The notes under the pieces: model-generated | Told to the model about the DNA's origin: nothing | Databases searched by the model: none | What the model saw: only the letters and a program-made list of their open reading frames with translations | Made by a program: the position numbers and the translations under genes | Shown here: positions 17,422-57,758 of the stretch, one piece after another | Layout: the number at the start of each line of letters is the position of its first letter | How positions within the stretch are numbered: the stretch's first letter is position 1 | IMG/VR virus record: IMGVR_UViG_3300028888_000115 | Span: 1-64,000 of that record | DNA: 64,000 nucleotides | DNA from: a virus | Taxonomy: Duplodnaviria; Caudoviricetes | Strand: one strand, 5' to 3'

Positions 17422-17735
17422 GGAACACACTTTTCTGTTTGGAAGGCGATAACGTATACTTTCGTGGCCTTGACGCCGGTCGGCAGTGGGAAGGCTATGA
17501 GTGCCCGTTGTTCAACTTCTGGAATGCGAAAACAGCAGCGCGGTACATCTCAAATTCGAGCGTCGAGGTCTCTTTCGACAAAGAGCAAGGTGCGTTTATC
17601 GTATCCAAGCGCGGAGATCCGAACAAATACCTGCTGAGGATGTACAAGATCGAAAAGGAGGTCTATGTCGACTTCGGCGGTACAGGAAGATGGAAGAAAA
17701 TTGAGAAGGAAACAAAAGGGGAGGAGCAGAAATGA
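17394..17735 (+). CDS. Hypothetical protein
   Basis: WEGYECPLF motif; couples to next gene. Confidence 0.6.
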   Translation: MEQERKIELRNTLFCLEGDNVYFRGLDAGRQWEGYECPLFNFWNAKTAARYISNSSVEVSFDKEQGAFIVSKRGDPNKYLLRMYKIEKEVYVDFGGTGRWKKIEKETKGEEQK

Positions 17736-18232
17736 GAGTAACATCCGCAGAGGCGAACAAGATCCTCAGAACGAAGCAGGATGAACTGAATGCTTTGAAA
17801 GCTGTGGAAAACAAAAGCGCGGTCTTCGTCGCGGCGACGACCGAGGATGTCGAGGCGGCGAGACCGGAGTACGACATCAAATCGGTGCAGGAGAAGATTG
17901 TAAACGCGCAGGCCGAGATCCGGAAACTGAAGCACGCAATCAATCTGTTCAATGTGAGCCACAAGCCGGAAGGGTTTGACATGACGGTCGACGAAATGCT
18001 GATCTATATCCCGCAGCTTACCAGCATGAAAGGCAAATATCAAGGCATGGCAAGCAGGCTTCCGAAAACAAGGCGGGAATCCGGATACAGCAGAAGCGGC
18101 CTGATCGAGTATGAGTATGCCAACTATGATCCGGCTTTTGCACAAGAGCAGCTTGACCGGATAACCGACGAGCTTTCCAGAGCGCAACTGGCTTTGGACA
18201 AGCTCAATACGACGGAAACCTTCGAGATCTGA
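17732..18232 (+). CDS. Helical protein, tentatively DIP1984/DUF6847-like
   Basis: VTSAEANKILR...RPEYDI...IRKLKHAINLFN...YEYANYD...AQLALDKLN. Confidence 0.7.
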   Translation: MRVTSAEANKILRTKQDELNALKAVENKSAVFVAATTEDVEAARPEYDIKSVQEKIVNAQAEIRKLKHAINLFNVSHKPEGFDMTVDEMLIYIPQLTSMKGKYQGMASRLPKTRRESGYSRSGLIEYEYANYDPAFAQEQLDRITDELSRAQLALDKLNTTETFEI

Positions 18233-18248
18233 TTTGAAGTATATTCCG

Positions 18249-18395
18249 GCAGCACTGTTTTCAATGAAAGTAATTCTTGGTTATTAGGGTTCAAGGTTGT
18301 TGTTTTTTGGTTATTCCTCTTTGTTATCGGTTGACGTTTATGTTCAAGGTACAAGAAGAAGAAAATTCTTAACAGAACGTCTTTTACAGTGCTGC
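18249..18395 (+). ncRNA. Candidate structured RNA: 10-bp closing stem around GUU-repeat loop
   Basis: GCAGCACTGT (18249-58) / ACAGTGCTGC (18386-95); inner TTCTTG/CAAGAA; periodic GTT units. Confidence 0.55.
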
Positions 18396-18445
18396 GAAAA
18401 CTTAGGCGGCGGCGGAAGTTCGGTTTCAAGCTGCTACATAAAGGA

Positions 18446-18485
18446 ATCCCGCAAGATCCTCAGGACCCTGCGGGATTTTCTTCTT
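18446..18485 (+). terminator. Intrinsic terminator-like hairpin
   Basis: AATCCCGCA / TGCGGGATT followed by T-rich run; between convergent genes. Confidence 0.55.
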
Positions 18486-18696
18486 CAGATGAATCCGGGA
18501 CACAATGGATTATTTCACTGATATCACAGTTCAGCAGGTTACATAGACGAGTCATAATCTCCCATGAAACAAGCTCACCATTGCGTATTTGCTGGACGTA
18601 GCTTTCTCCTATAAGTTTTTCCTTCCTCAAACGATAGGTGGTATACCCTTTGCTTTTGAGGGCAGATAGGACATCGATTTTGTAACGGATTTGCAT
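18460..18696 (-). CDS. Cro/C1-type HTH (HTH_26-like) regulator 1
   Basis: IRYKIDVLSALKSKGYTTYRLRKEKLIGES...RLCNLLNCDISEII; GGAGG RBS. Confidence 0.85.
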   Translation of the reverse strand: MQIRYKIDVLSALKSKGYTTYRLRKEKLIGESYVQQIRNGELVSWEIMTRLCNLLNCDISEIIHCVPDSSEEENPAGS

Positions 18697-18756
18697 AAGC
18701 TTTTCCTCCAAATATGCACGAGATAAAAGTGCACAAAATGCACAAAATAAACACGT

Positions 18757-48467: not shown

Positions 48468-48552
48468 GTGCCTGTGGTGGAACTGGTATTCACATCCGAT
48501 TTAAGATCGGACGCCAAAAGGATTGAGAGTTCAAATCTCTCCGGGCACACCA
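48468..48552 (+). tRNA. tRNA-Leu(UAA)
   Basis: GTGCCTG/CGGGCAC stem, TCCGA-TTTAAGA-TCGGA, long V arm, CCA. Confidence 0.92.
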
Positions 48553-48555
48553 CGC

Positions 48556-48632
48556 GCTTCCGTGCTGCAACCGGTAGACAGGGGCGGCTCAAACCCGTCT
48601 GTTTCCGAGTTCGAATCTCGGCGGAAGCACCA
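48556..48632 (+). tRNA. tRNA-Leu(CAA) with short variable loop
   Basis: GCTTCCG/CGGAAGC, loop CTCAAAC, 5-nt V region, TTCGAAT, A73-CCA. Confidence 0.85.
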
Positions 48633-55056: not shown

Positions 55057-55132
55057 TGCGGCGTGGTAGCAGTGGTAGCTCGCTGCCCTCATAAGGCAGA
55101 GGTCGTTGGTTCGAATCCAACCGCCGTAACCA
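55057..55132 (+). tRNA. tRNA-Met/Ile2(CAU)
   Basis: CTGCC-CTCATAA-GGCAG; lacks initiator GGG/CCC stem; CCA. Confidence 0.85.
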
Positions 55133-55134
55133 AA

Positions 55135-55275
55135 GGTCGGGTAGCTCCCGAATGATCTCAGTAGCTTGTCGGTGTGCCTGAGAGAGAATAACAAAGGCCT
55201 TTCTGAAAACTCCTTGCGCGTGAACGGTCGTGCGCAGGCTGGGGCGCGAGTGAGATAATCTAAGAAGGGAAACCG
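55135..55275 (+). ncRNA. Candidate RNA carrying module shared with 57022
   Basis: TCGGG/CCCGA hairpin, TCTCAG/CTGAGA helix, GAGAATA. Confidence 0.45.
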
Positions 55276-55283
55276 CACAATAC

Positions 55284-55360
55284 AGCCCTGTGGTGCAGTT
55301 GGTGAACACGTCGGCCTGTCACGCCGAAGATCGCGGGTTCAAGTCCCGTCAGGGTTGCCA
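55284..55360 (+). tRNA. tRNA-Asp(GUC)
   Basis: TCGGC-CTGTCAC-GCCGA; G73-CCA. Confidence 0.92.
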
Positions 55361-55364
55361 ATAC

Positions 55365-55660
55365 GTCTCATCTGAGCGTGGCACAACACAGCCTGTTGAC
55401 GCAAGGGCTGCACGGGCGAAATCAGATGCCGGGGCGGGGTTACATCCCACGGAGCGTCACCGTGCTCGCAGAAACGGACTCGGTATGTCCCAAACCATCG
55501 TGAGAGTATACCTTGGATGGCACAAAGCGTTTAGAAGTGCCCGATCAGCCTTCTGCGCGTATCCCGGACGGTCCGGGACCAAGGACTGTGAAGAGCGTGT
55601 TCGATTCCGCGAACTCGAAGGTTCGACTCCTGACAGTGCTGGTGCAATATCAGTCCTTTT
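55365..55660 (+). ncRNA. Candidate ~300-nt structured RNA with kissing loops
   Basis: Helices 55369-75/55422-28, 55467-73/55551-57, 55581-88/55651-58; loop-loop TGACGC/GCGTCA. Confidence 0.55.
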
Positions 55661-55666
55661 TCATAC

Positions 55667-55755
55667 GCGGAATGATGCCGTCCGGCGACGGCTGCGGCCT
55701 TGAAAACCGTGGGTAGCAGAGATGCTATGGGGGTCGGCACCTCCGTTCCGCGCCA
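55667..55755 (+). tRNA. tRNA-Ser(UGA), 8/4 fold
   Basis: 8-bp acceptor GCGGAATG/CGTTCCGC, 4-bp T stem, T loop GTCGGCA, 6-bp D stem, long V arm. Confidence 0.85.
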
Positions 55756-55758
55756 GAT

Positions 55759-55848
55759 GCAGTGTTGCCAGAGCGGTAATGGGCCCGCTTGGAAAGCGGA
55801 AGCCAGGTTGAGAAGCCTGCGAAGGTTCGATCCCTTCACGCTGCGCCA
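55759..55848 (+). tRNA. tRNA-Ser(GGA)
   Basis: Canonical 7/5 fold, loop TTGGAAA, long V arm, G73-CCA. Confidence 0.9.
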
Positions 55849-55851
55849 GAT

Positions 55852-55941
55852 GCTTCGTTATGCCGGACGGCTCCGGTCCTTGCCTCGAAAGCAGAGGGTG
55901 CCCGATGAGGGCATGGGGGTCGGCACCTCAGCGAAGCGCCA
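55852..55941 (+). tRNA. tRNA-Ser(CGA), 8/4 fold
   Basis: 8-bp acceptor GCTTCGTT/AGCGAAGC, 4-bp T stem, T loop GTCGGCA, 6-bp D stem. Confidence 0.85.
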
Positions 55942-55944
55942 CAT

Positions 55945-56019
55945 AGAGCTGTCGTCTAAGGGTAAGACACGAGGCTTTGACCCTCGTATGTGAAAGTTCG
56001 AGTCTTTCCGGCTCCGCCA
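55945..56019 (+). tRNA. tRNA-Gln(UUG)
   Basis: CGAGG-CTTTGAC-CCTCG; A1:C72 mismatch; CCA. Confidence 0.88.
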
Positions 56020-56023
56020 GTAT

Positions 56024-56109
56024 GGAAGAGTGGCCGAGTTGGTCAATGGCGGCGGACTGTAAATCCGTTGGCACTGCCTACACAGGTTCGAATCCTGTCT
56101 CTTCCACCA
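56024..56109 (+). tRNA. tRNA-Tyr(GUA)
   Basis: GGAAGAG/CTCTTCC; CTGTAAA loop; CCA. Confidence 0.93.
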
Positions 56110-56112
56110 CAA

Positions 56113-56189
56113 GGTCCCATCGACTAACAGGCAAGGTCACCAGCCTTTCACGCTGGCAATGCTCGGTTCAAATCCGGCTGGGATCACCA
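56113..56189 (+). tRNA. tRNA-Glu(UUC)
   Basis: CCAGC-CTTTCAC-GCTGG; CCA. Confidence 0.9.
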
Positions 56190-56192
56190 CAT

Positions 56193-56268
56193 GGGGTCGT
56201 AGCTCAGCTGGGAGAGCGCCTGCCTTGCAAGCAGGAGGCAGAGGGTCCGAGCCCCTCCGATTCCACCA
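56193..56268 (+). tRNA. tRNA-Ala(UGC)
   Basis: G3:U70; CTTGCAA loop; T loop TCCGAGC; CCA. Confidence 0.9.
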
Positions 56269-56271
56269 CAA

Positions 56272-56348
56272 GGTCTCTTCGTCTAAAAGGATAGGACGCA
56301 AGCCTCTCAAGCTTGTAATGCTGAGTTCAAGTCTCGCAGAGATCACCA
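56272..56348 (+). tRNA. tRNA-Glu(CUC)
   Basis: CAAGC-CTCTCAA-GCTTG; CCA. Confidence 0.9.
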
Positions 56349-56468
56349 GCACATCTGACCGCCGAGGACGCGTACTCGGGAGATACCCGCAGATAGACGG
56401 AGAAGAAGCGGGGCTGAGCGGCACGGTGCAGACCCGACACCCGCAGGGTCCATGCCGCAAGCGGGTAT
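56349..56468 (+). ncRNA. Candidate small structured RNA between tRNAs
   Basis: ATCTG/CAGAT, CCGAG/CTCGG, GCGGCA/TGCCGC, GACCC/GGGTC helices. Confidence 0.35.
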
Positions 56469-56470
56469 AT

Positions 56471-56547
56471 GGCTCATTAGCTCAGTTGGTTAGAGCGCAT
56501 GGCTGTTAACCATGATGTCGAAAGTTCGAGTCTTTCATGAGCCTCCA
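56471..56547 (+). tRNA. tRNA-Asn(GUU)
   Basis: CATGG-CTGTTAA-CCATG; followed by CCACCA. Confidence 0.92.
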
Positions 56548-56550
56548 CCA

Positions 56551-56840
56551 AGTGGCTGTGCTGCAGTGTTTGCATCGAAGCACCTCCTTTCGTAAATCCA
56601 CACGTCTGCTGGCCGTGCTTGCGCTACGGTTGTTGGATGAAACAAAGCAGAGCCGTGAACCGGAACAACGTGCGTACTGGGAACGCACGCCGGGAAATCG
56701 GCACAATACAGAACTGTTGGCTTTGATTCCTGACTTGTACCGAAGGCTTCGGTCCCACCGAGGCGATTGATGTAGGTAGCATCTGGGGCTCATGAAAGCC
56801 GCAGGCCCGATTAAAGCTCCGCGAGACGGGCTATCGGGCA
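56551..56840 (+). ncRNA. Candidate ~290-nt structured RNA with anti-SD segment
   Basis: GTGCT/AGCAC, CGTGCGT/ACGCACG, ACCGAA/TTCGGT, GCCCGAT/ATCGGGC; CACCTCCTTT at 56581. Confidence 0.45.
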
Positions 56841-56844
56841 ATAC

Positions 56845-56919
56845 AGGTTGGTGGTGTAATGGCAACATGCCGGTCTCCAAAACCGTGCGATCAGGGTTCG
56901 AGTCCTTGCCTTCCTGCCA
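56845..56919 (+). tRNA. tRNA-Trp(CCA)
   Basis: CTCCAAA loop; two U:U mismatches in acceptor stem; CCA. Confidence 0.85.
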
Positions 56920-56930
56920 AAAAAGAATAC

Positions 56931-57019
56931 GGAGCGTTGGCCGAGTTGGTAAGGCACCGGATTGCTAATCCGTGGTTAGGGGTAACTCTACGAATGTTCG
57001 AGTCATTCACGTTCCGCCA
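56931..57019 (+). tRNA. tRNA-Ser(GCU)
   Basis: TTGCTAA loop, long V arm, G73-CCA. Confidence 0.9.
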
Positions 57020-57021
57020 TT

Positions 57022-57486
57022 TCCGGGTAGCTGCCGGATGATGTCAGAGCAGATGCACCAGAGGCCTGACAGAGAATATGAATGGTAGACCGACCAAAGC
57101 GGGGCGGAAGCCCTGCACAAGGCCTATGGCGGTACTACAAGTGAGGGCAACGTCGAAGGAACGCGACTGATTTGTGCGGGATGGCAAACCCACAAAAAAG
57201 AACAAACACGCCCCGCTGCGGGTGACAGCACCAAAGGAAGCTGAGACGTCCGGTTTCCGGGTCTATCACTTAAAGCGGGGAATAGGCCGAATAAAACAGG
57301 AACTTGGCCGTAGGGCAGTGAAAGTGCGAATGCGTTGTAGCTGGCTGATGATGGCAGACAGAGCAAACGGCTGTAACGACAGGACGTGAGAATTAGCCGT
57401 CTACTGAAAGGGAAAGAAATCCCATCAAAGCTGTTTGCTCACAATTCTATATCGGATACCGTCATGCCGAAAGGTGTGGCGGTATC
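57022..57486 (+). ncRNA. Candidate large ornate ncRNA (~460 nt)
   Basis: Nested 9-bp helices 57083-91/57260-68, 57098-106/57209-17, 57112-20/57172-80; pseudoknot 57121-27/57281-87; 12-bp helix 57360-71/57428-39. Confidence 0.65.
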
Positions 57487-57509
57487 TTTGCTTTGGGGAG
57501 AGAGCAGAA

Positions 57510-57758
57510 ATGAGTAAGTCGAAGGATATTCGCACGCTCTGCGCCTCCTGCAGAGCAGAATACGAGGAAGCCGGATTTGAACTGATCAAAGTCTGGGTGA
57601 AAAACAAAGAGGAATGTGACTGGTGCCGCGTGAGACTGGGGTGGACCTATGAAATACGCGGAAAGAGACAACATCTTCGTAGCTCAGATGGCAAGAGCGC
57701 TGAATACTCCCAATTCAGGGGTCGCGAGTTCAAGTCTCGCCGAAGATGGACGCGATAG
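57510..57758 (+). CDS. Small Zn-binding protein reading through a tRNA-like gene
   Basis: RTLCASC..EECDWC..WTYEI; GGGGAG RBS. Confidence 0.6.
   Translation: MSKSKDIRTLCASCRAEYEEAGFELIKVWVKNKEECDWCRVRLGWTYEIRGKRQHLRSSDGKSAEYSQFRGREFKSRRRWTR
57673..57748 (+). tRNA. Deviant tRNA-Gly-like gene (9-nt anticodon loop, no CCA)
   Basis: ATCTTCG/CGAAGAT, GCTC/GAGC D stem, CTGAA-TACTCCCAA-TTCAG, GCGAG-TTCAAGT-CTCGC. Confidence 0.65.

What the first reader, a model, noticed from the sequence alone, without database searches (positions are those of the whole stretch)
17732..18395. Helical protein plus a 3' RNA with a 10-bp clamp around periodic GUU repeats: candidate new RNP system
Seen: 17 nt after the stop of the 166-aa helical gene, GCAGCACTGT pairs perfectly with ACAGTGCTGC 127 nt later, with an inner TTCTTG/CAAGAA helix. 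The enclosed strand is G/U-rich, unlike the rest of the window, with GTT units at 18280, 289, 296, 299, 302, 310, 323, 330, 336 and 342 (mostly 6-7 nt spacing in the 3' half). A terminator follows. There is no credible ORF. Inference: repeated short units in a clamped loop resemble binding sites for a ring-shaped oligomer (cf. TRAP/GAG repeats). The adjacent DIP1984/DUF6847-like protein (family call tentative) is the obvious partner. I know of no described function for this pair.
Basis: partly seen in the sequence, partly recalled or inferred. Interest (0 to 1): 0.8.

Follow-up and report, generated by a model that had tools for sequence, protein, structure and literature searches.

The report
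New folded RNA partnering DIP1984-like gene
Right behind a small phage gene of unknown function lies a real, roughly 190-base folded RNA carrying about ten evenly spaced GUU units; gene and RNA travel together in gut Clostridia and their large phages and match no catalogued RNA family, so they are probably two halves of an undescribed protein-RNA particle.

Summary
It spans window 18245-18437. A 10-bp clamp (P1) encloses about ten GUU-led units with a period near 7 nt. A 3' pseudoknot follows, and its hairpin loop pairs with both flanks of the clamp.

In 37 non-redundant relatives, 87% of proposed pairs form, against 66% in shuffles and 35-45% in slid controls. All 17 clamp and hairpin pairs show compensatory changes. 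A covariance model finds the RNA on the gene's strand behind 83 of 88 homologous loci. Four of the five misses are contig ends. In whole genomes it occurs only next to the gene.

The protein has the fold of 3KDQ, the DIP1984/DUF6847 fold of unknown function. A homodimer is predicted, not a ring. Rfam 15 and the held literature describe neither partner. Canonical DUF6847 genes carry a different downstream RNA that also has a 7-nt period.

Direct binding, RNA ends and biological role are untested.

Earlier notes of this scan report the same protein-plus-RNA pairing on other DNA (168 notes, at least 137 genomes). Closest analogue: VIPR, which has a different fold, period and logic.

The parts
17732..18232 (+). 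166-aa gene for a helical protein with the DIP1984/DUF6847 fold. Its ATG overlaps the stop of the upstream 113-aa ORF, so it sits in a phage operon.
   Evidence: ORF. More than 400 homologues. AlphaFold2 mean pLDDT 90.7. Foldseek top hit 3KDQ, probability 1.00, TM 0.61-0.65. VIA-align Z 13.4, rmsd 4.3 A over 150 residues; next row Z 8.4. NCBIfam DIP1984 E = 0.0087, 16.2 bits against a cut-off of 70. Pfam DUF6847 hits 6 of 21 relatives.
18245..18437 (+). The whole conserved RNA element, 193 nt
   Evidence: Alignment A3 of 37 non-redundant relatives. Pair counts. Covariance model R1 scores 105.1 bits at 18287-18437. No Rfam match.
18246..18248 (+). 5' flank CCG, which pairs with CGG in the loop of the 3' hairpin (long-range pseudoknot PK-a)
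   Evidence: helix 1: 97.3% of cells paired. Pair 6/316 is GC 29, AU 2, UA 1, GU 2, UG 1. Examples are CCU/AGG in L021 and L051, and CCA/UGG in L026 and L079.
18249..18258 (+). P1 clamp, 5' arm
   Evidence: All 8 aligned pairs show compensatory changes.
18280..18355 (+). Array of about ten GUU-led units with a period near 6.7-7 nt, mostly single-stranded. It contains the conserved units GUUCA, GUUAUUC, GUUAU, GUUAU and GUUCAA.
   Evidence: Local hairpins around the GUUCA units are present in only 13 and 10 of 37 relatives.
18386..18395 (+). P1 clamp, 3' arm
18396..18403 (+). Conserved GAAAACUU. ACUU at 18400-18403 pairs with AAGU in the hairpin loop (pseudoknot PK-c).
   Evidence: helix 3: 95.3% of cells paired. 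Pair 263/312 is AU 30, GC 4, GU 2. Pair 265/310 is UA 28, CG 5, UG 2.
18408..18435 (+). 3' hairpin. Arms are 18408-18413 and 18430-18435. The conserved loop holds AAGU (18416-18419) and CGG (18421-18423).
   Evidence: all 9 aligned pairs show compensatory changes. About a quarter of relatives (22 of 81) have a strong T-run directly after it, so it also acts as an intrinsic terminator there.
18445..18477 (.). 15-bp G+C-rich hairpin shared with the convergent HTH gene (18460-18711, - strand). It is the probable terminator of the window's transcript.

Best explanation
The gene and the 193 nt behind it form one two-part module: a DIP1984-fold protein and its dedicated partner RNA.

The RNA is made from the + strand, in most relatives as the tail of the gene's own transcript. 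It folds so that a clamp (P1) holds out a largely unpaired array of about ten GUU-led units spaced about 7 nt apart. The 3' end forms an H-type pseudoknot. The loop of that pseudoknot also pairs with the CCG just 5' of the clamp, so both ends of the RNA are locked into one compact cap.

Inferred, not shown:
- The protein, probably as dimers, binds the periodic units one after another and makes a defined RNP.
- The cap protects the RNA ends and/or nucleates assembly.
- The unit sequences are conserved rather than hypervariable, so the RNA looks like a fixed partner or scaffold and not a programmable guide.
- The module is self-contained, patchily distributed and carried by large phages. This points to an accessory role, perhaps in phage-host or element-element conflict.
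For: RNA structure
- In A3, 87.4% of 857 cells pair, against 65.9% in shuffles (0 of 500 reach it) and 35-45% when partners are slid.
- The covariation score is 0.559, against 0.178 in shuffles and 0.11-0.16 when slid.
- 20 of 24 pairs carry double changes, including both pseudoknots.
- G-U pairs outnumber A-C 66 to 20, so the + strand is the folded one.

Periodicity
- GTT-GTT spacings peak at 7 (z 22.6), 13, 19-20 and 26 across 37 cores.
- The window alone gives p = 0.0045.

Linkage
- R1 hits the + strand just behind the gene in 83 of 88 loci.
- Four misses are contig ends; only L065 truly lacks it.
- In three isolate genomes the 4 RNA hits equal the 4 gene copies.
- In a 151-genome family sample the RNA is in 2 genomes and the gene in 3. 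The third genome holds a divergent RNA with the 3' domain.
- No RNA was found without the gene.

Autonomy
- In bacteria the pair stands alone among unrelated genes, often with its own promoter-like site.
- In L128 the RNA lies 1.6 kb from the gene. This argues for action in trans.
- The array can sit in P1, in a helix inserted in the pseudoknot loop, or in both.

Superfamily
- Canonical DUF6847 genes (20 of 401 Bacillota genomes) have a different conserved downstream element. It also shows base periodicity at lag 7 and 14 (z 4.6 and 4.5).

Protein self-association
- Score 0.73, best of 3 controls 0.00. That mark was reached by 20 of 30 proteins solved as pairs of one chain and 1 of 23 solved as single chains.
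- The runs agree in at least 63% of contacts, and partner pLDDT is at least 85.
- Four copies and my own alignment were used, unlike the calibration. A relative (3KDQ) is solved, so the pass may reflect likeness.

Presence in RNA libraries
- Contigs from two gut metatranscriptome libraries of different studies cover 18255-18409 (identical) and 18256-18412.
- This is a weak hint of presence in RNA, not proof of transcription.
Against: - No experiment or computation here shows that the protein touches the RNA.
- The protein family is mildly acidic (mean pI 5.5). There are 11 conserved basic positions, but most invariant residues fall in the predicted dimer interface.
- The single-sequence folding energy is not exceptional.
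- Homologous sequences are not independent, so the periodicity z-scores overstate significance.
- One relative (L065) has the gene without the RNA.
- The RNA ends are not mapped. Contigs cannot show ends, strand or level.
- The biological role is a guess from distribution only. No known defence family matches.
Confidence: 0.6

Rival explanations
1. The element is a purely cis-acting 3' UTR. It stabilises or terminates the gene's mRNA, or lets the protein feed back on its own message, without forming a lasting particle.
For: The RNA starts 5-20 nt after the stop codon in most loci. In about a quarter of relatives (22 of 81) the 3' hairpin is followed by a strong T-run, as in an intrinsic terminator. 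The end-locking pseudoknots would suit protection from exonucleases.
Against: In L128 the RNA is kept intact 1.6 kb away from the gene, behind another ORF, with a promoter-like site just upstream. That promoter-like match is at consensus level only. A stabiliser does not need ten conserved, periodically spaced units. The array is preserved even when moved to another helix, or duplicated. A second protein clade has a different RNA with the same 7-nt period.
Confidence: 0.2
2. The RNA is a sponge or decoy for some other factor, such as a host RNA-binding protein or a nuclease that reads U-G-U-N motifs. The neighbouring protein acts separately.
For: Multi-site unpaired arrays are typical of sponge RNAs such as CsrB (own knowledge). 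The units resemble GUN anticodon-loop heptads and the phage carries a large tRNA array. This is resemblance only.
Against: The RNA is never found without this gene in the genomes searched. The unit sequence changes with the protein clade, GUU here and GUA-type units in canonical DUF6847 loci. That fits recognition by the cognate protein better than by a universal host factor.
Confidence: 0.1
3. The pair is a toxin-antitoxin-like module in which the repeat RNA neutralises a harmful protein, similar in logic to type III systems.
For: It is a solitary two-part module with a patchy distribution. Some genomes have several copies, and phages carry it.
Against: There is no similarity to ToxN-type endoribonucleases. 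The RNA lies behind the gene, not in front of it. Units are 7 nt, not about 36 nt. Toxicity was not tested.
Confidence: 0.07
4. The region is not an RNA. It is either a small hydrophobic peptide gene or a DNA site such as a packaging, replication or recombination site.
For: G+T-rich sequence can encode hydrophobic peptides. Short ORFs exist at 18277-18372 and 18297-18521.
Against: No frame stays open in more than 17 of 35 relatives. Core lengths differ by non-multiples of three. ORFs differ even in the 98%-identical relative. Compensatory pair changes and a 66:20 excess of G-U over A-C mark a folded + strand. The same element occurs in bacterial chromosomes outside phages.
Confidence: 0.03

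Closest known systems
DIP1984 family / Pfam DUF6847 (PF20935); crystal structure 3KDQ of a Corynebacterium diphtheriae protein of unknown function
   Same: The fold is the same: Foldseek probability 1.00 and TM 0.61-0.65; VIA-align Z 13.4 over 150 residues. Size is similar. Weak HMM matches span nearly the whole length. Canonical members in Bacillota also have a conserved ORF-free region of about 200 nt behind the gene, with a 7-nt period.
   Different: The window's clade scores far below the curated cut-offs (16.2 against 70 bits; no Pfam hit for the window protein). Its RNA has different sequence motifs: GUU units and a GAAAACUU...GAAGUNCGGUU pseudoknot, instead of GUA-type units and a GUGAGGGUGGG tail. 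R1 does not detect the canonical loci. No function is known for the family.
VIPR systems (Vipr protein plus vrRNA; bioRxiv 10.64898/2026.04.26.720920 and 10.64898/2026.04.26.720927)
   Same: A minimal, largely phage-borne locus holds one small protein and a non-coding RNA. The RNA consists of about 10 short, evenly spaced units and ends in a conserved structured tail with a pseudoknot. In VIPR the protein oligomerises along the units (abstracts).
   Different: Vipr is an RRM-fold RAMP, whereas this protein is helical. VIPR units are 5 nt (GGY/NN) with hypervariable guide dinucleotides. Here the period is about 7 nt, the fixed part is GUU, and most units are conserved across families. There is no conserved accessory gene. 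DNA targeting is neither shown nor suggested here.
   Same: Repeated short triplet-led units in an unpaired stretch, which could be read by many copies of one small protein.
   Different: TRAP is a beta-sandwich ring that acts on a 5' leader to control attenuation. Here the protein is helical and predicted to be a dimer. The RNA is a 3' element with a clamp and pseudoknots, and it has no downstream regulated gene: downstream neighbours vary and are often convergent.
Type III toxin-antitoxin systems (ToxIN and similar; own knowledge)
   Same: A protein plus a repeat RNA as a self-contained pair, found in bacteria and phages.
   Different: There is no ToxN-like fold. The repeats are about 7 nt and not tandem copies of about 36 nt. 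The RNA is downstream. No processing sites are evident.

Membership tests
DIP1984 family (NCBIfam NF038048) / DUF6847 (Pfam PF20935) | Score above the curated HMM cut-off | tested here: not met
   NF038048 gives 16.2 bits against a cut-off of 70, E = 0.0087. The window protein has no PF20935 hit. 6 of 21 clade members hit it, best E = 9.9e-07. PF20935 also fails to detect the clade's copies in G001.
DIP1984 family (NCBIfam NF038048) / DUF6847 (Pfam PF20935) | Fold of the solved member 3KDQ | tested here: met
   Foldseek E = 3.6e-04, probability 1.00, TM 0.61-0.65. VIA-align Z 13.4, rmsd 4.3 A, 150 of 152 residues; the next row is Z 8.4 at rmsd 10.3.
DIP1984 family (NCBIfam NF038048) / DUF6847 (Pfam PF20935) | Conserved ORF-free element with a 7-nt period behind the gene. 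This is not a published criterion; it was observed here. | tested here: met
   Window clade. Canonical PF20935 loci: lag 7 z 4.6 and lag 14 z 4.5, with conserved blocks.
VIPR | Vipr protein with a RAMP/RRM core, G-loop and thumb | tested here: not met
   The model is helices plus short strands. The only specific structural match is 3KDQ.
VIPR | vrRNA of 9-16 five-nt YNNGG units with hypervariable NN | tested here: not met
   The period is about 6.7-7 nt with GUU fixed. Five of about ten units are conserved beyond GUU across 68 non-redundant sequences.
VIPR | Conserved structured 3' tail with a pseudoknot | tested here: met
   The 3' hairpin plus two covarying pseudoknot helices. This is a resemblance in layout only.
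TRAP-type ring/leader systems | Ring-forming beta-sandwich protein and (G/U)AG triplets with 2-3 nt spacers in a 5' leader | tested here: not met
   Helical model. A symmetric dimer is predicted, with only a few contacts to further copies. Units are GUU with about 4-nt spacers, 3' of the gene.
Type III toxin-antitoxin (ToxIN, CptIN, TenpIN) | ToxN-like endoribonuclease, with tandem RNA repeats of about 34-36 nt upstream of it | tested here: not met
   No such Pfam or PADLOC match. No tandem repeat of that size. The RNA lies downstream.
Retron (msr-msd with flanking inverted repeats) | Adjacent reverse transcriptase gene | tested here: not met
   No reverse transcriptase among the neighbours in the window or in bacterial loci.
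Any Rfam 15 family | Covariance-model match | tested here: not met
   No hit at gathering score in the window outside the tRNAs. At E up to 10 on 18200-18500 there were only four chance-level matches, of 12-17 bits, to three microRNA models and one snoRNA model.

The most novel reading that the evidence does not exclude
The DIP1984-fold protein polymerises along the 7-nt units into a defined filament. The exposed bases of the array then read another nucleic acid through a gapped, periodic code. This would be a helical-protein counterpart of VIPR or Cas7 backbones that evolved independently, used by phages and bacteria against competing elements. The GUU-type and GUA-type arrays of different clades would be different fixed specificities.
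Probability: 0.12. Interest if true: 0.92.

Novelty: categorically new. Interest (0 to 1): 0.78.

Why it matters
A widespread domain of unknown function has had a solved structure since 2009 without any assigned role. It would gain one: partner of a dedicated structured RNA.

The RNA is a new family with unusual architecture. A clamp displays a 7-nt periodic array. Both RNA ends are tied into a double pseudoknot.

Periodic-repeat RNAs read by protein oligomers have recently turned out to be programmable machines (CRISPR backbones, VIPR). A third, structurally unrelated example in gut Clostridia and their large phages would therefore interest RNA biology, phage-host conflict research and tool development.

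The hypothesis is directly testable in cultured carriers (Dysosmobacter segnis, Enterocloster, Lacrimispora).

Tried and rejected
- Rfam at gathering and permissive thresholds gave nothing.
- A PDB sequence search with the family profile gave no hit.
- PHROGs and PADLOC gave no meaningful hit for the protein. Only weak coiled-coil matches to LmuB and JetC appeared in relatives.
- The plasmid collection has no homologue of this clade. The GenBank phage collection has only two unannotated fragments.
- Literature searches for DUF6847, DIP1984, septicolysin plus non-coding RNA, and GUU or 7-nt repeats found nothing on this pair.
- The period-7 cluster in bioRxiv 10.64898/2026.10.21.760802 is a different, protein-less element of Patescibacteria.
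- Alignment A4, on a subset, misaligned the clamp and was not used.
- Hairpins presenting the two GUUCA units in loops occur in only 13 and 10 of 37 relatives, so they are not claimed as family features.
- The ring oligomer idea has no support: the four-copy prediction pairs copies two by two.
- Guide-like hypervariability was not seen among close relatives or in the consensus.
- Single-sequence thermodynamic stability is not distinctive.
- RNA-library contigs leave most of the gene uncovered in X3, and leave the region past about 18412 uncovered in all four runs. With contigs this says nothing about absence.
- The promoter-like site before the detached RNA in L128 is a consensus-level match no better than shuffles.

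Full report
**What is in the sequence**

The 166-aa gene runs from 17732 to 18232 on the + strand. Sixteen bases after its TGA stop, GCAGCACTGT (18249-18258) is the perfect complement of ACAGTGCTGC (18386-18395).

The 78 nt from 18274 are the most G+T-rich stretch of the whole 64-kb window: 0.76 against a mean of 0.494, sd 0.057. They are also the only place with nine or more GTT. GT spacing in the window's own core is periodic (p = 0.0045 against dinucleotide shuffles).

A 15-bp G+C-rich hairpin at 18445-18477 follows. It is shared with a convergent HTH gene.

Taken alone, the clamp is not remarkable. The window has 49 inverted repeats of 10 nt or more within 160 nt, and the folding energy is ordinary (z -1.6 and -0.6). 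The inner TTCTTG/CAAGAA helix is at chance.

**Comparative evidence makes it real**

The protein has more than 400 relatives. A genome scan confirmed 339 loci, mostly Clostridia from guts. One IMG/VR contig of 146 kb is 98% identical.

Printing the 240 nt behind each stop codon showed the same non-coding element almost everywhere. In an alignment of 37 non-redundant copies (A3) I tested a structure of four helices:
- the clamp P1;
- a 3' hairpin;
- a pairing of ACUU (18400-18403) with AAGU in the hairpin loop (18416-18419);
- a pairing of the CCG just 5' of the clamp (18246-18248) with CGG in the same loop (18421-18423).

The results (RNAalifold agrees for P1 and the hairpin):
- 87.4% of cells pair, against 65.9% in shuffles (0 of 500 reach it) and 35-45% when partners are slid by 1-3 columns.
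- The covariation score is 0.559, against 0.178 in shuffles and 0.11-0.16 when slid.
- All 8 clamp pairs and all 9 hairpin pairs show compensatory changes.
- Both pseudoknots covary: AU 30 / GC 4 and UA 28 / CG 5 for one, GC 29 / AU 2 / UA 1 for the other.

G-U pairs outnumber A-C 66 to 20, so the + strand is the folded one. No reading frame is conserved, and core lengths vary by non-multiples of three.

The hairpin loop bridges both flanks of the clamp. This ties the 5' and 3' ends of the RNA into one cap.

**The array**

Across the 37 cores, GTT-to-GTT distances peak at 7 (z 22.6), 12-13, 19-20 and 26. That gives a period near 6.7 nt. The sequences are related, so these z-scores overstate independence.

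The consensus of 68 non-redundant copies reads as about ten units. GUUCA, GUUAUUC, GUUAU, GUUAU and GUUCAA are conserved; the others are loose. Close relatives do not differ preferentially in the spacer bases, so the array does not look like a variable guide.

Hairpins that present the two GUUCA units occur only in some lineages. The array is best described as unpaired.

It is also modular. In L078 and L085 the clamp is a plain hairpin and the array sits in a helix inserted in the pseudoknot loop. L060 has arrays in both places.

**Linkage to the gene**

A covariance model of the array plus 3' domain (R1) gave these results:
- It finds one copy in the window's own 75-kb virus record, at 18287-18437 with 105 bits.
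- It finds the RNA on the gene's strand, just downstream, in 83 of 88 loci.
- Four of the five misses end within 100 nt of the gene or hold only a gene fragment. L065 truly lacks it.
- In three isolate genomes the four RNA hits are exactly the four gene copies.
- In a 151-genome sample of one family the RNA is in 2 genomes and the gene in 3. The third genome carries a divergent RNA that keeps the 3' domain, with the expected covariation.

In bacteria the pair stands alone among unrelated genes. It often has its own promoter-like site, and in several loci it lies right after a tRNA gene. In related large phages the synteny of the window is kept.

In L128 the RNA lies 1.6 kb from the gene, behind another ORF. 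This argues that it works in trans.

Contigs from two gut metatranscriptome libraries of different studies cover 18255-18409 (identical) and 18256-18412. This is only a weak hint of presence in RNA.

**The protein**

The AlphaFold2 model is confident (mean pLDDT 90.7). It has four long helices and a small sheet. The only specific structural match is 3KDQ, an uncharacterised C. diphtheriae protein:
- Foldseek probability 1.00, TM 0.61-0.65;
- VIA-align Z 13.4, with the next row at 8.4.

The DIP1984 and DUF6847 HMMs match weakly and below cut-off. The clade is therefore a divergent sister of that family.

Self-association is supported by the model:
- Score 0.73, best of 3 controls 0.00. That mark was reached by 20 of 30 proteins solved as pairs of one chain and by 1 of 23 solved as single chains.
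- The runs agree in at least 63% of contacts, and partner pLDDT is at least 85.
- Four copies and my own alignment were used, unlike the calibration. A relative is solved, so likeness may explain the pass.
- The interface is a symmetric dimer through residues 49-75, 84-109 and 124-133. It is not a ring.

The family is mildly acidic (mean pI 5.5) with 11 conserved basic positions.

**Beyond this clade**

Canonical DUF6847 genes occur in 20 of 401 Bacillota genomes. They are followed by a different conserved element of about 200 nt that ends in GUGAGGGUGGG. It also shows base periodicity at lags 7 and 14 (z 4.6 and 4.5; an upstream control shows none). R1 does not detect these loci.

The fold family thus seems to come with clade-specific heptad RNAs. 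Earlier notes of this scan say the same for other phyla and archaea. I tested that claim only for Bacillota.

**What is known**

Rfam 15 has no match. No paper in the held library mentions DUF6847 or DIP1984. The related searches found nothing on the pair.

The nearest described logic is VIPR: a phage protein that polymerises on an RNA of about ten short units capped by a pseudoknotted tail. VIPR differs in three ways. It uses a RAMP fold, its units are 5-nt GGY/NN, and its dinucleotides are hypervariable guides. So it is an analogue, not a relative.

TRAP, type III toxin-antitoxin systems and retrons each fail defining features (see the membership table).

**Verdict**

- Shown: the RNA family, its fold, its periodic array and its near-obligate linkage to the gene.
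- Inferred: direct binding, stoichiometry, RNA processing and biological role.
- I rate the RNP reading at about 0.6. A purely cis-acting 3' UTR is the main rival.

Noticed in passing
L128:5570-7020: In a 191-kb phage-like contig, the stretch between the DIP1984-like gene and its detached RNA holds about 12 copies of a 20-nt hairpin repeat, AATTTCTGCTAnnnGCAGAT, with a variable loop. They are spaced about 58-83 nt apart and lie on both sides of a 248-aa ORF with no Pfam match. It could be a mini-array or a set of phage regulatory hairpins.
   Followed up: partly
L060:3505-3862; L085:6505-6750: The heptad array is modular. L060 carries two arrays in one RNA, one inside the clamp and one in a helix inserted in the pseudoknot loop. 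L078 and L085 carry the array only in that inserted helix, and their clamp is a plain hairpin.
   Followed up: partly
L098-L115 (canonical DUF6847 loci of Bacillota): A second, different conserved non-coding element of about 200 nt follows canonical DUF6847 genes. Its conserved blocks are GGTAGC, GGCGAGYAC, TACTACC and GTGAGGGTGGG..GGGG. It has base periodicity at lags 7 and 14, and two genomes have tandem gene copies about 2 kb apart.
   Followed up: partly
window 48468-48632 and 55057-57749: The phage carries at least 14 tRNA genes in two clusters. Rfam also calls a tRNA-Sec-like gene at 55666-55752 (49 bits, cut-off 47) that ARAGORN does not report.
   Followed up: no
window 18355-18366 and 18475-18486: A perfect 12-nt inverted repeat, GAAGAAGAAAAT / ATTTTCTTCTTC, links the variable part of the RNA to the T-rich tail of the downstream terminator hairpin. 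It may be chance or an alternative pairing.
   Followed up: no
L024, L039, L056, L062, L075 (upstream 150 nt): In several bacterial genomes the gene-plus-RNA module lies directly behind a tRNA gene, a common landing place for mobile DNA.
   Followed up: no
L131:10211-10507: A relative of the window's phage carries an IS605 OrfB / Cas12f-like TnpB gene about 4.7 kb downstream of the module. It is absent from the otherwise syntenic L130.
   Followed up: no
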